Shown one piece after another: positions 26,841 to 62,400 of a stretch of DNA of 64,000 nucleotides. The DNA lies in contig OZ024746.1 of assembly GCA_964016885.1 (NCBI GenBank), forward strand, positions 21,514,001-21,578,000. The letters run 5' to 3'. This DNA is from Eledone cirrhosa. Lineage: Eukaryota. The position numbers and the translations under genes are program-made. The notes below the pieces were generated by a model. The model did not search any database, had not been told where the DNA came from, and saw only the letters and a list, made by a program, of their open reading frames with translations. How positions within the stretch are numbered: the stretch's first letter is position 1; every line of letters starts with the position of its first letter.

Positions 26841-27478
26841 ATAGAATTCACAAGAATCAAAGCTATGTTCAAAGCATTTATTCACTTACAATTGTTTCAT
26901 CCAAACCTAGGCTTGGAGTCTTCGGAGCATTTTTCAATGTTTGTACACATAATTGACTTCCTATCCAACGCAAGAGACATACAGATAGATACATATATAT
27001 ATATTGATGTACAGTGGAGTGACATATATTATATTATACTATATTTGTACAGCAATTCAAAATCAAAATCAAAATTAAAATTAAAATACATGCGGCAGAT
27101 AACACAGATAATTGTTTCTACTTTAGGCACAAGGCCAGCAATTACCCAGTGCATTACTGGTACTTTATTTTATCGACCCCGTAAGGATGAAAGGCAAAGT
27201 CAACCTCGGCGGGAAAGAGGATAGTTTGATAATCAGATCTAGAAGATAGTGTATGCGTTAGTTACACATGGAGCATGCAAGTGTGTCTCATTTATATACG
27301 ATTGTGTGGCAAGGTGTTACATGTAATGCAAACACTTTAAGCAGGTAAGCAAGAGTATTATGGTGGTTGTAGTGGTAGTCAATTATATGTACAAACATTG
27401 AAAAATGCTCCGAAGACTCCAAGCCTAGGTTTGGATGAAACAAATGCTTTGAACATAGCTTTGATTCTTGTGAATTCT
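26841..27478. mobile_element. PLE family P2 with inverted terminal copies and a SINE A fragment (27110-27213) inside
   Basis: 26841-26957 is inverted relative to 27378-27478. The minus-strand copy has an intact HHR; the plus-strand copy lacks stem III and the cleavage site. Confidence 0.75.
26883..26929 (-). ncRNA. Minimal hammerhead ribozyme, variant core (family P2)
   Basis: Minus strand: TGCT CCGAAGA c TCCAAGCC-ta-GGTTTGGA t GAAA CAATTG TA AGTG aataaa. Stem III region ACAATTGT is a perfect palindrome; GUA triplet. Confidence 0.72.
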
Positions 27479-28449
27479 CTCTCTCTCTCTCTATATATAT
27501 ATATATATATGGTGGCTGCCAACTCGTTTTCGAGTACGGCCACTACTTTATATCCATGTAGGAGAACCTCTACCGATGCGCTGAACGAGTGTGATTTTTT
27601 AGTCCAGCCAGCGACTTGAAAACTCTGGTACAAACACTACACCTGTGACAATTATTGACACATAGTGCTGGGCCCATGGTACCATGTGACGACAAGTGCA
27701 GAGAGATCTCCAGATATAAAGCAATGCCTGTGCCGTGAAGCTTTTATAGTGAGCAAAGGCACTGCACAAAGCCAGTCCCACTCTCTTAACCAAGATGATA
27801 TTTACCAAAAAGAAGAACAAGTCAACATCATTGGATACTATCATATACACACACATATATATATTTATATATATATACATATACACACACATACATTTTT
27901 ATATATATGTATATATACACATATTTGTATATACATGTATGTACATACATTCATACATATATATATATATATACACATACATGCATACATACATGCATAC
28001 AAAAAGAGAAGGGAAAAGAAAATGAGAGAGTGAGTGACAGAGGAGAGATAATTCATTTTACAATGCATAACGTTAACAAACTAATCAATCTAATGAATTA
28101 AAATAAATATATAAATTTGAGTTTTTCTCTTACGTTTTTGACTTCATGTTAAAGGTGGTAAAAAACAGATTGATATGGGTGAGTATATCTGACAGCTTTC
28201 ACAAGTAAAACAAATATGTTGCACTGTGATTGATGGACATTCATAATGCTGTAATGCCTGTCATGCTAGAAAAATATTCTTTGTAGAGCCTGCATAATCA
28301 TAACATGGAAAACTGCCAGAATCATTCTCATTGCTTCATGTACAGTTTATCACACAAATATGTCTCTACATCAAATTCAAATCAAAGTTAAATTATGAAT
28401 ACACACAAACACACACGCACACAATATATATATATATATATATATATAA

Positions 28450-29068
28450 TACTCTGGATGTCGGTGAGCATGTCCAGCTAACCTCAGTCTCCTCTGTGTC
28501 ACTTTTGAGGTGACTTTTGGGAGGCTCCCATACAGCTCTGAGATTTTCATCCTCAGTGTATACTGACTAATGTTCAGAGCCATCCTCAGCATTCTCGTGT
28601 AGCACCCATTCACCATCTGAGTGAGTTTCTTGGTCAGTGTCCAAGTCTCAGACCCATACAGCAGCACAGACTCCATTACAGCAATGAAGAGCGGATTTTC
28701 AGGTCTTTACGAAGGTCCGACTTCCACACCGATCTCAAGCTGTGGCACGCTGCCCAGGCTTTGCTCTTCTTCTCAACCACATCATCTTCCGTGTCCCAAT
28801 CTTTGCTCCCAAATACAGGAAGTCCTCAACCAATTCTAGCGGCTTCCCGCCTACATTAGTGATCCCCTCTGGCTTCTCAACATTCTCTACCAGATATTTT
28901 GTTTTAGTCTCATGGACAAGAGCAAGACCAGGGTTAACGTATGTTGATTCCCTAAGGACAGACACTGGTCTGTTGGAGATGCAGGACATGGCAGTGATAA
29001 TGAGGGACAGAGACCGCTGGAGAGAACTTGTCCATGGATCTCGGGATTTTACCCGCCCTAGATAGATA
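28450..29068. mobile_element. RTE-type LINE with 5' inversion
   Basis: Minus 28450-28910 reads ELVEDFLYLGAKI...ESVLLYGSETWTLTK...GCYTRMLRMALNIS...RRLRLAGHAHRHPE. Plus 28915-29065 reads ARPGLTYVDSLRTDTG...MRDRDRWRELV. Confidence 0.9.
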
Positions 29069-29819
29069 TATAATACTAACAAAATTATAGATGTCATGTC
29101 TGAGAAAATCACAAACATGTGCCATACCACCTATATCTACATACATATATATATGTGTGTGTATATATTATGTTAAACAATGAAAGAATACATCAAGGTG
29201 CTGTCATTAATTAATCCTTTGTTTTACAATAGTTTCTGAGGGCAACATTATTGATGTGATGACCAATTGATGGCAGTTATGCAAATCCATACCATTTGCT
29301 GTCTATTCTCAGAAATAATGGATTATATTTTTTCTAGATAAATGAGTAGTCAGTTCACATGGAAGGAAATGTGAATAGGTTAATTAACTAATAAATAAGT
29401 AGTACATAAATGTATAAAATGCTATACACACATATATTTATGCCCTTACACATTCATAAACCATCAGATATCAAATGAGATTCAAACTGCAGTAATTTTT
29501 ATTCTAGTTTTTGTCAGACAGTTATCTAGATCTTAAATTCTACAGTGAAAATGTTGGTCAGCTACGGGTGGCATACCTACCACATACAAATACAAAATAC
29601 ATATACATAATCATATATATATATATATATGCACACACATACAAACATACACATACACCCATATCTATATATATATATATATATATATAATCATCATCAT
29701 CATACGTCTGCTTTGCCCTGCTTGCAAGGGCAGGATGGGTTCTATTCAGCACAGCTTCTCTCCATTTGTCATCTCCTCCGTGAGCTTCAGCAATCTGAGA
29801 TCAGCTCTCATGTTTATAT

Positions 29820-30112
29820 CATCATCATCACCATCATCATATTACGTCTACTTTTCCCTGCTTGCAAGGGTGGGAAGGGAACTGATTCTGGCTTGATTTC
29901 TACAGCTGGATGCCCTTCCTAACACCAACCTCATTTACAGTGGAATGATAGGGACCCCAGTCCCTATCATCTCATTTCTACAGCTGAGTAAACTGGAGCA
30001 ATGTGAAATAAAGTGTCTTGCTCAAGGAAACAACACATCACCCGGTCTGAGAATTGAACTCACAACCTTTCGATTGCAAGACCAATGCTCTAACCACTAA
30101 GCCATGTGCCTC
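29820..30112 (-). mobile_element. SINE group B with RTE-like tail, near-identical to 1460-1790
   Basis: Reverse-complement match, with a deletion between two CACTG microrepeats. Confidence 0.88.
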
Positions 30113-59910: not shown

Positions 59911-59960
59911 TAGGCTCTGATGATTCCTGCCATGGTGTATGGATGAAACACTGTTAGCTA
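59911..59960 (+). ncRNA. Minimal type-I hammerhead ribozyme, variant
   Basis: GGCT CTGATGA t TCC tgcc-at-ggtg tat GGA t GAAA C-act-G TT AGCT AATAAA; GUU triplet. Confidence 0.62.
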
Positions 59961-60114
59961 ATAAAACAATGTATTTCTAAGCACTCTTTGGTTATTCCTA
60001 TAACTATAACGGCTCTGTAATATACTAGTTATCCTACATTGAGCTAAAGCCACACTGTCATACCAAGGGCAATATATCTGCATGTCTGGGCATATTGATA
60101 TATTTGTCAACGAA

Positions 60115-60958
60115 ATATATATGTATATATATATATGTGTGTGTGTGCATATATATATATGTATGTATATATATATATATGTATATATATATATATATAT
60201 GTGTGTGTATATATATATATGTGTATATATATATGTGTATATATATATATATATGTGTGTATATATATATATATGTGTATATATATATATGTGTATATAT
60301 ATATATGTGTATATATATATATGTGTATATATATATATATATGTGTATATATATATATATATGTGTATATATATATATGTGTGTATATATATATATATGT
60401 GTATATATGTGTGTGTATATATATATATATATATGTGTGTATATATATATATGTATGTATATATATGTATATATATATATATATGTGTGTGTATATATAT
60501 ACACATATATATATATATACACATATATATATATATACACATATATATATATATATACACATATATATATATACACATATATATATATACACATATATAT
60601 ATACACATATATATATATATACACACATATATATATATATACACATATATGTATATATGTATGTATATATATGTATATATATGTGTATATATATATATAT
60701 GTATATATATATATATATATGTGTATATATATGTGTATATATATATATATATATATGTGTATATATATATGTGTATATATATATATATATATATGTGTGT
60801 ATATATATATATATGTGTACATATATATATATATATGTGTATATATATATATATATGTGTGTATATATATTTATATATATGTATATATATATATGTGTGT
60901 GTATATATATATATATGTATATATATATTTGTGTGTATATATATATATATACATATAT
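60115..60958. repeat. Compound (TA)n/(TG)n satellite with an internal polarity switch
   Basis: G-interrupted to about 60500, C-interrupted 60500-60650, then G-interrupted again. Confidence 0.92.
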
Positions 60959-62109
60959 AATGATACTATTTATAGTTATGTATATTTTAAACTATAAACA
61001 GGAAAGGTCAGTAATTTCCTACTACCTTATTACCAGTAAGAAAAATAGCTCAATGTAAGAACATCAGGTGTTTCACAGAGCAGGAAAATACAACTCTACA
61101 CAACTCCTATTTATATCTAACCTTATATTCTACAATAGCTATTAGAATTAAACATAAAGTTACCACCTTTTAATATAACTACTATAGCTTAATTATATTA
61201 TATACAGTAATAAATATATAATATGTAGTGACATTTAATGTAATATGTAATAATAAATTATATATACATTTATAATTAAATATTTAAATTAATAGCATTG
61301 TATATAAGGGATTTACTTTAACAAAATATAATAATAATAAAGTATATATACATTTATAATTAAATATATAAATTAATAGCATTGTATATATGGGATTAAC
61401 TTTTAACACAATAATGTATATTATTACACAAATGATCTAACTATTTCTACATGTAAACAGCTATACAATTTTCCATAACATATATCTTGTCCAGATAACA
61501 ATCTAATGAGACCTTTAATGTATTTTAGGAAAATACACTGTATTTAAAATTAAGTATAAATATATAACATTATGTAATAGAGATTCACTTGTATCACAAT
61601 ATAATGTGTATTAGAGCAAAGAATTTAAATAATTGAATTTAATTAGCTAGTTACCTCCCCTTACGCATTAGCTCCCCTTAATCTTGGATCTCATACTCAC
61701 TTCCGGAAATTAAACCGTTGGAAAAACTACCTGTTGAACAACTCTAATCCATGAATAAGAATACAATAAGACCAATTTACAATCCATTGCTGTAACTAAC
61801 TTAAAGCATTCAATATAAACATTAACTAAAATATAATTTAACATATGTAATGGAAAGGACTACAATAACTTTGATTTTCTCAACACACACAAATTCGAAC
61901 ACTATCATCATATTACTTCCGCCATAAATTTTAATACATTAACATATTTGCTTACCATACAGTATTTATTTATTTATTTATCTATATATGCAAAATATCT
62001 TTGCTTTTTTCCTTCTCATATATATGACAAACGCATGTGCACTTTCTACACGCTTGCATATGTACTGTTAATGTACTCATTCTTTCTCAATGCCTCTTTA
62101 ATTACTAGA

Positions 62110-62400
62110 CTATTCTCTTGTATTATCTGTCGCATGTATTCCACTCTGTGCTTTTAATTTGAATTTGAATTTTTGTACAATTCTCGTATAATATATGTCG
62201 CATCCAGTACACCCTGTAAATACGAAACTGTTGCTCACAACATCAATATATATGTATCTATATGATTGTTTAGTTGAATAGGAGGTCCATTATATGTACA
62301 AACATTGATAATGCTCCGATGACTCCAAACGAAAGTTTGGAAGAAACGATTGTCAGCAATTAAATGATTTGAACACAATTTTGATAATTGTCTAATTTTT
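62110..62400 (+). mobile_element. PLE-type terminal repeat, diverged family P2 member
   Basis: Shares AATTTGAATT...TGTACAA...GTATAATATATGTC and TTATATGTACAAACATTGA..ATGCTCCGA.GACTCCAA with 21040 and 26841; ends at (TA)n. Confidence 0.72.
62312..62358 (+). ncRNA. Minimal hammerhead ribozyme, variant core (family P2)
   Basis: TGCT CCGATGA c TCCAAAC-gaaa-GTTTGGA a GAAA C-gatt-G TC AGCA. Four-bp stem I, seven-bp stem II with GNRA loop, GUC triplet. Confidence 0.8.

What the first reader, a model, noticed from the sequence alone, without database searches (positions are those of the whole stretch)
26883..62358. Family P2 hammerhead has a non-canonical core (CCGANGA, unpaired base of stem II) with structure-preserving divergence
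Seen: 26883(-) reads TGCT CCGAAGA c TCCAAGCC-ta-GGTTTGGA t GAAA CAATTG TA AGTG. 62312(+) reads TGCT CCGATGA c TCCAAAC-gaaa-GTTTGGA a GAAA CGATTG TC AGCA. Differences fall at the free N7 position, the stem II loop, G-U versus Watson-Crick swaps and the cleavage base (GUA versus GUC), while pairing is kept. Both have C instead of U4 and a C-U or C-A mismatch where G10.1-C11.1 is canonical. Similar pyrimidine mismatches or insertions at the base of stem II recur at 26305, 36976, 57569 and 59917. Inference: a functional hammerhead variant that standard descriptors would miss.
Basis: partly seen in the sequence, partly recalled or inferred. Interest (0 to 1): 0.75.

Follow-up and report, generated by a model that had tools for sequence, protein, structure and literature searches.

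The report
C4-core hammerhead in Hydra-clade retroelements
These two motifs are the tail ends of very abundant jumping genes in an animal genome, and the whole group carries a hammerhead-shaped RNA with C in place of a nearly invariant core U; it likely still cuts itself, slowly and in pairs, but cutting is untested.

Summary
Both motifs are type I hammerheads in the terminal repeats of Hydra-clade Penelope-like retroelements (RT plus GIY-YIG endonuclease, (TA)n insertion). They belong to two related families, not one. C4 is the consensus: 38 of 42 and 56 of 56 copies sampled by flanks alone. It is shared by further families (1,592 and 2,703 pattern matches) whose endonucleases are down to 52-60% identical. 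Across them all 11 core positions are invariant; changes fall on free or pairing-preserving sites. Sister families keep U4, so U4C likely arose once and was kept. Helix III is an 8-nt palindrome, predicted to form only in a dimer, so the proposed monomer assay would probably give a false negative. The unpaired base of stem II is not new: published Hydra-clade hammerheads show it (15 of 26 rows), and it predates C4 here. U4C is known from a viroid, with reduced activity. I found no paper with it fixed in Penelope elements, but one key paper was unavailable. This scan noted U4C Penelope hammerheads before, in other genomes and elsewhere in this one. Side result: a one-sided substitution hot spot at 10.1-10.3.

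The parts
62312..62358 (+). Type I hammerhead, family A: stem I 62312-62315 with 62355-62358; core C3-A9 62316-62322 with C4 at 62317; stem II 62323-62342 (10.1/11.1 = C.A); GAAA 62343-62346; palindromic helix III 62346-62353; predicted cut after 62354
   Evidence: fold
62294..62378 (+). Predicted extension of stem I beyond an internal loop (about 11 further pairs), also predicted in B
   Evidence: prediction only
61094..62400 (+). 5'-truncated family A element: 3' untranslated region, terminal repeat with hammerhead, and a tail of about 43 nt past the cut site, ending in (TA)n
60908..61090 (-). Inverted segment of the same element (sequence that follows the tail), without hammerhead, abutting (TA)n
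26883..26929 (-). Type I hammerhead, family B: C4 at 26924, 10.1/11.1 = C.U, palindromic helix III, predicted cut after 26887
26663..27115 (-). 5'-truncated family B element, long-tail form (about 180 nt past the cut site), ending in (TA)n
21082..21128 (-). Second family B hammerhead, C4, damaged (G8A and a stem I change)
27406..27450 (+). Third family B copy, C4, with a deletion removing part of helix III and the cut site
59913..59959 (+). Hammerhead of sister family C: U4, U.U at 10.1/11.1, 7-nt imperfect helix III; serves as outgroup

Best explanation
The motifs are hammerhead folds in the terminal repeats of Hydra-clade Penelope-like retroelements, C4 is fixed across a whole group of these families, and the RNA likely still self-cleaves slowly, as a dimer and probably with help from the element's own protein. 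Shown: element identity, copy numbers, C4 consensus, core invariance across diverged families, U4 in sister families. Inferred: a transcript running through tandem copies holds two motifs; their 8-nt palindromes pair to give a shared helix III; G8 and G12 then catalyse scission after the GUC or GUA, trimming the element's RNA. C4 and the lost G10.1-C11.1 pair would lower the rate, which the element tolerates. The solitary truncated copies in this window are probably dead ends without a partner in cis.
For: Element: stop-free 574-aa RT-endonuclease frame in a C4 copy; repeat-ORF-repeat copy L179; Hydra motifs DKT, RWR, CxCX5C, CxxC and CxH. Consensus: C4 in 38 of 42 A and 56 of 56 B copies chosen by flanks only, 94 of the 100 listed D copies of 536, 95 of the 100 listed of 2,703 further matches. 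Constraint: 15 of 47 columns vary among five family majorities, none of the 11 core ones (hypergeometric p 0.007); N7 and H17 vary and H17 is never G; 10.6-11.6 switches A-U to G-C and the palindrome centre switches A-U to G-C; upstream flank of D against A, B, E is 62-65% identical, near the shuffled control of 59-61%, while 33-38 of 47 motif positions match; four long E copies differ at 0 of 47 motif columns and 45 of 173 upstream columns. Dimer: monomer helix III pair probability at most 0.04; palindrome self-duplex -5.8 to -6.4 kcal/mol; a two-strand model of the 62312 copy folds into the hammerhead as its minimum-energy state. Literature: Penelope hammerheads are weak and dimeric (PMC4209133); one cleaves only with protein (PMC11167929); a natural U4C viroid variant keeps enough activity in vivo and a natural U10.1.U11.1 mismatch exists (PMC3088659).
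Against: No cleavage was measured. U4C 'considerably decreases activity in vitro' and a mutational scan found low activity for all single changes in the CUGA turn (PMC9901934); here it is combined with loss of G10.1-C11.1. In the anole element, dead-ribozyme mutants did not affect insertion in vitro and no reads began at the cut site. Copies here show no excess change at the cut site. For the 26883 copy the two-strand minimum-energy fold leaves stem I open (-15.8 against -13.2 kcal/mol for the hammerhead). Conservation could reflect protein binding. D, E and G were first seen through similarity that includes the motif and E and G were sampled with a core-fixing pattern, so part of the invariance is circular; only A, B and D were sampled by flanks alone. 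Only two pairs show two-sided change, and that count is not above shuffles (216 of 500).
Confidence: 0.6

Rival explanations
1. The fold is conserved but no longer cuts to any useful degree; it is kept as a binding or positioning signal for the element's reverse transcriptase near the tail where copying starts.
For: Two rate-lowering changes together; ribozyme activity dispensable for insertion in vitro in the anole element; Naiad elements spread without canonical hammerheads; reverse transcription appears to start about 43 or 180 nt past the cut site, copying through it; N7 and H17 hardly vary within families.
Against: All catalytic positions, not only the stems, are invariant over families with 52-60% endonuclease identity, and variation falls where a ribozyme allows it.
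Confidence: 0.25
2. C4 is an adaptive brake: it pairs with G16.2 and locks the single copy in an inactive fold that only dimer formation or protein releases, so cutting is tied to tandem transcripts.
For: Predicted C4-G16.2 pairing 0.65 (A), 0.51 (D), 0.17 (E), 0.10 (B) against at most 0.02 with U at that position; C4 co-occurs with a perfect 8-nt palindrome, whereas U4 sisters have a 7-nt imperfect one (self-duplex -1.6 kcal/mol for C); C4 persists although it sits in a CpG that decays to U in copies.
Against: Weak in B and E; monomer helix III does not form with U either; the co-occurrence is a single evolutionary event; folding prediction only.
Confidence: 0.12
3. The motif is a dead relic whose C4 was a damaging change carried along by successful elements.
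For: U4C is harmful in vitro; overall motif identity between some families (33-41 of 47) is only modestly above the flank for A against B (76-81%).
Against: Zero change in the motif among E lineages that differ by about 14% upstream, and invariance against D whose flank is unalignable.
Confidence: 0.03

Closest known systems
Hammerheads of Hydra-clade Penelope-like elements (Craig et al. 2021, PMC8557442, section 11 and File S2)
   Same: Same element clade by motifs; type I hammerhead in the terminal repeat; palindromic helix III; a mismatch at the base of stem II in 15 of 26 Hydra rows (14 U.U, 1 U.C), and C.A in PLE-X1_cBra; (TA)n insertion.
   Different: All 34 motif rows have U4; here C4 is fixed. 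Stem II is longer (7 pairs plus the mismatch), the palindrome is even and 8 nt long, and the unit is about 3.9 kb against generally under 3 kb.
Minimal hammerheads of metazoan Penelope-like elements (Cervera and de la Pena 2014, PMC4209133)
   Same: Long helix II, short helix I, palindromic helix III needing a dimer, thousands of mostly solitary truncated copies, high variability.
   Different: Their consensus has U4, one extra unpaired base before 10.1 and a conserved G10.1-C11.1; none of 56 representatives has C4. Here G10.1-C11.1 itself is replaced.
Natural core variants, including viroid U4C and U10.1.U11.1 (Perreault et al. 2011, PMC3088659, citing Ambros and Flores 1998)
   Same: Both deviations occur singly in natural hammerheads that retain some activity.
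   Different: Those are rare individual variants; here both are combined and U4C is fixed in thousands of copies over long divergence.
Protein-assisted hammerhead of the anole Poseidon element PAc (Frangieh et al. 2024, PMC11167929)
   Same: Hammerhead upstream of a tail where reverse transcription starts; AT-rich targets.
   Different: Different clade; cleavage was measured there and is untested here.

Membership tests
Hammerhead ribozyme (type I) | Core C3 U4 G5 A6 N7 G8 A9, G12 A13 A14, A15.1-U16.1, H17 | tested here: not met
   All positions match except U4, which is C in the consensus
Hammerhead ribozyme (type I) | Three helices around the core, helix I open | tested here: met
   94.8% of cells paired, slid controls 25-39%; helix III only as an intermolecular duplex
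Hammerhead ribozyme (type I) | G10.1-C11.1 closing pair | tested here: not met
   C.A, C.U, U-A, A.G in C4 families; G-C survives in some U4 sister families
Hammerhead ribozyme (type I) | Match to an Rfam hammerhead model | tested here: inconclusive
   No match at E up to 10 for either copy, nor for the U4 control at 13314
Hammerhead ribozyme (type I) | Site-specific self-cleavage after H17 | not testable with these tools
   Needs an assay; no usable RNA reads
Hammerhead ribozyme (type I) | Loop I-loop II tertiary contact | not tested
   An internal loop in extended stem I is predicted but loop II differs in every family
Hydra clade of Penelope-like elements | Single ORF, RT followed by C-terminal GIY-YIG endonuclease | tested here: met
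   574-aa open frame from RT to endonuclease; GIY-YIG E 6e-4, below the curated cut-off; no Pfam RT hit
Hydra clade of Penelope-like elements | DKT, RWK, CxCX5C linker, CxxC and CxH around E and N, no CCHH | tested here: met
   DKT in L126, RWR (for RWK) in L179; CxCX5C, CxxC, CxH and no CxxC within the GIY-YIG core, read by eye
Hydra clade of Penelope-like elements | Terminal repeats, tandem or inverted truncated copies, tail, (TA)n insertion | tested here: met
Hydra clade of Penelope-like elements | Placement in a tree with reference Hydra proteins | not tested
Hydra clade of Penelope-like elements | Generally under 3 kb | tested here: not met
   3,949 nt between the two hammerheads of L179; a tendency, not a strict criterion
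Neptune clade of Penelope-like elements | CX2-5CxxC linker with CCHH in the endonuclease, DKG | tested here: not met
   My first reading; dropped
Non-LTR retrozyme | Short non-coding tandem repeats, each with a hammerhead | tested here: not met
   Copies are dispersed and linked to an RT ORF

The most novel reading that the evidence does not exclude
A retroelement lineage retuned its hammerhead into a gated switch: C4 locks the single RNA shut by pairing into the palindrome, a strengthened palindrome opens it only in tandem transcripts, and the fold leaves a one-sided mutation scar at the 5' base of stem II each time it is reverse transcribed, which would mark where the enzyme stalls or jumps.
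Probability: 0.12. Interest if true: 0.7.

Novelty: new variant of a known kind. Interest (0 to 1): 0.42.

Why it matters
The role of hammerheads in Penelope-like elements is open: they cut weakly and were dispensable in one in vitro system. This genome holds matched sister families with U4 and C4 cores and a graded series at 10.1/11.1 (G-C, G.U, A.A, U.U, then C.A, C.U, U-A, A.G), both groups successful in the thousands. That is a natural experiment on how much catalysis the element needs. If C4 dimers cut, the hammerhead core consensus and search descriptors must allow C4, and counts in animal genomes are too low by thousands per genome. If they do not, it shows a ribozyme fold kept for another job.

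Tried and rejected
Rfam scans: only microsatellite-driven microRNA noise in the 150 of 228 rows shown for the window, no hammerhead model on the two copies or the U4 control. RNA evidence: no RNA holder listed; of 4 contig sets laid, 3 guessed RNA sets gave 0 and one set of unknown kind gave 1,433 pieces; this says nothing on expression or cleavage. First per-position tally counted overlapping loci twice (106 rows) and was replaced by 98 unique copies, after leaving out 4 loci picked with a core-fixing pattern. Alignment A1 had wrong coordinates for 4 rows and was replaced by A2. Genome-wide pattern for the 26305 family found 0, so that family was not characterised. Neptune assignment rejected. 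C4 as private decay or as CpG artefact rejected: U4 copies within A are mostly scattered (6 of 9 have a C4 nearest neighbour; 3 cluster). Reading the base of stem II as an inserted base plus U-A rejected in favour of a substituted G10.1-C11.1, since U4 sister families have G-C in the same register. Hot spot as palindrome correction: explains only part of the changes. Hot spot as ageing: no correlation with copy divergence. PDB and Pfam searches on the long ORF gave nothing useful; the protein atlas was unavailable. Papers not held: Lunse et al. on small Penelope hammerhead variants, Ambros and Flores 1998, two others.
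Full report
Observation. Both motifs are present as described: 62312-62358 on the plus strand and 26929-26883 on the minus strand. Each has C at position 4 and a non-pairing 10.1/11.1 (C.A and C.U). A loose descriptor finds 3 such motifs in the window against 0.01 in 200 shuffles. Two more C4 copies lie in the window, both damaged (21082-21128 minus, 27406-27450 plus). The four other sites named have U4.

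Host. The window lies in a 3.0-Gb genome rich in (TA)n arrays. Named homologues of the element protein come from Argonauta and Octopus, so a cephalopod is a reasonable inference; I did not test it further.

What carries the motif. Each window copy has thousands of first-look candidates in the genome (3,363 and 2,668). Longer copies lead upstream into an RT and GIY-YIG endonuclease frame; L179 has the repeat-ORF-repeat layout with 3,949 nt between hammerheads, and many copies have an inverted truncated arm. Copies end about 43 or about 180 nt past the predicted cut site, in (TA)n. The protein has DKT, RWR, CxCX5C, CxxC and CxH and lacks CCHH, the diagnostic set of the Hydra clade in Craig et al. 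2021 (section 11 read). This is a motif match by eye, not a tree with references. One family E copy has a stop-free 574-aa frame and arms identical over 174 nt, so C4 elements moved recently.

Is C4 the consensus? A pattern fixing only the flanks gives 1,592 matches, control 0. I recovered 98 unique copies from loci around the first 100 listed: C4 in 38 of 42 A and 56 of 56 B; the other 4 are U. A pattern excluding A and B gives 2,703 matches, control 1, with C4 in 95 of the 100 listed (families D, E, G). A flank-only pattern for D gives 536, with C4 in 94 of the 100 listed, U in 5, A in 1 (counted by eye). All lists are the first places on contigs 1-2, not random draws.

Origin. A pattern with U4 and the same stem II frame gives 3,772 matches, control 0; these sister families have G-C, G.U, A.A or U.U at 10.1/11.1. 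This fixes the numbering: the mismatch replaces G10.1-C11.1, and its loss predates C4. An endonuclease tree of 20 copies groups A, B, E and D apart from U4 family C (support 90), with D 52-60% and C 46-51% identical to the others. The link of D to its endonuclease rests on two copies. One origin of U4C in this group is the simplest reading.

Is the fold under selection? Among majority sequences of A, B, D, E and G (G from 3 copies only), 15 of 47 columns vary and none of the 11 core positions does (p 0.007). The variable ones are N7, H17, 10.1/11.1, loop II, wobble swaps, the closing pair next to loop II, and an A-U to G-C switch at 10.6-11.6. On 18 distinct rows, 94.8% of cells pair against 25-39% for slid controls; two pairs change on both sides, which is not above shuffles (216 of 500), though cells with such change are (3 of 500) (rows are related, so this is descriptive). 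The 180 nt upstream of D align to A, B and E at 62-65%, near the 59-61% shuffled level, while 33-38 of 47 motif positions match. Four long E copies differ at 45 of 173 upstream columns and 0 of 47 motif columns; about half of those 47 were fixed by the search pattern. Within families, core positions mutate at 2-3%, the level of dead copies, so selection acts on source elements only.

How it would work. Helix III is an 8-nt palindrome. As a monomer its pairs have probability at most 0.04; as a duplex it gives -5.8 to -6.4 kcal/mol, and a two-strand model of the 62312 copy has the hammerhead as its best fold, while for 26883 stem I stays open. This matches the dimer model of Cervera and de la Pena 2014 (main text parts 1-3 of 4 and supplement parts 1-2 of 3 read), whose tested motifs cut weakly. 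Frangieh et al. 2024 (parts 1-2 of 4) found cleavage only with protein and no need for it in insertion. Perreault et al. 2011 (sections 8, 9 and passages) report U4C as a viroid variant with much lower but sufficient activity, and a natural U.U at 10.1/11.1. Roberts et al. 2023 (PMC9901934, passages; author name recalled) found low activity for single changes in the CUGA turn. I therefore put slow, dimer-dependent, probably protein-assisted cleavage at 0.6, a non-cutting binding element at 0.25, a C4 lock at 0.12 and a relic at 0.03. Position numbering and the roles of G8 and G12 are established knowledge, partly recalled.

What is new. The mismatch is in print: 15 of 26 Hydra rows in Craig File S2 show U.U or U.C, and a Chara element shows C.A. 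C4 appears in none of those 34 rows nor in the 56 of Cervera Fig. S3. Searches for 'hammerhead' with 'U4C' gave 4 papers, of which I read only Perreault, and with 'CCGANGA' gave 0 (related searches). The Lunse et al. paper on small Penelope hammerhead variants could not be read and may cover it; figures and subscription journals were not searchable. Other papers seen: PMC6765202, PMC11014351, PMC7229834 (passages) and bioRxiv 10.64898/2026.07.22.740005 (part 1 of 5). Earlier notes of this scan describe U4C Penelope hammerheads in five other-genome windows and one elsewhere in this genome; they are unchecked and I used them only as a lead to Craig File S2.

Side result. Positions 10.1, 10.2 and 10.3 differ from the majority in 17, 11 and 5 of 42 A copies and 20 of 56, 20 of 55 and 9 of 56 B copies, against 0-2 copies at their partners 11.1-11.3. 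The excess does not grow with copy divergence (19 of 28 against 18 of 28 in B) and opposed copies within B loci disagree there in 15 of 42 sites against 56 of 1,764 elsewhere; some of the 32 pairs may not be arms of one insertion. It is visible in D, weak in E and absent from the best-hit copies of U4 family C. Errors during reverse transcription are my guess; diversity among source elements is not excluded.

Verdict. A real, clade-fixed U4C variant of a known retroelement hammerhead; half of the claimed oddity is already published; activity is open. New variant of a known kind, interest 0.42.

Noticed in passing
families A, B, D; window 62323-62325 (+) and 26918-26916 (-) equivalents: One-sided substitution hot spot at 10.1-10.3 (12-40% of copies) with partners nearly invariant; independent of copy age and often discordant between opposed copies in one locus.
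   Followed up: partly
L262-L265, L268-L272 and one search list: Large set of U4 sister families (3,772 matches) with the same stem II frame and G-C, G.U, A.A or U.U at 10.1/11.1, and a 7-nt imperfect helix III.
   Followed up: partly
L261, L266: Three family A copies with U4 that cluster together and are about 19% from other A copies; a possible revertant sub-lineage or a duplication.
   Followed up: no
window 13307-13372 (+), 21415-21474 (-): Another hammerhead family with U4, G at 10.1 and a (TA)n helix III; also missed by Rfam.
   Followed up: partly
window 26172-26416, 46674-46989, 56964-57172, 57338-57674, 58926-59278: Long palindromes; at least 26172-26416 and 57338-57674 hold a U4 hammerhead-like motif in each arm, consistent with inverted Penelope stubs.
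   Followed up: no
window 36976-37045 (+): U4 hammerhead-like motif with a long stem II (about 50 nt) and two pyrimidines before GAAA.
   Followed up: no
window 48179-48577 (+): Decayed Penelope-like linker and GIY-YIG endonuclease remnant of another family (33-42% identical to family A pieces).
   Followed up: partly
window 7920-8282 and 9189-9575 (+): Open frames that look like host exons; no Pfam hit. Resemblance to follistatin-like proteins is recalled, untested.
   Followed up: no
window 30047-30104 (-) and about 12 copies of a 100-200 nt repeat (e.g. 7343-7551, 36665-36860, 39324-39504): tRNA-like hit just above the Rfam gathering score and abundant SINE-like repeats.
   Followed up: no
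L070:2012, L048:818, L027, L113: A separate long-stem-II hammerhead family with U4 in most copies and C4 in one locus.
   Followed up: no
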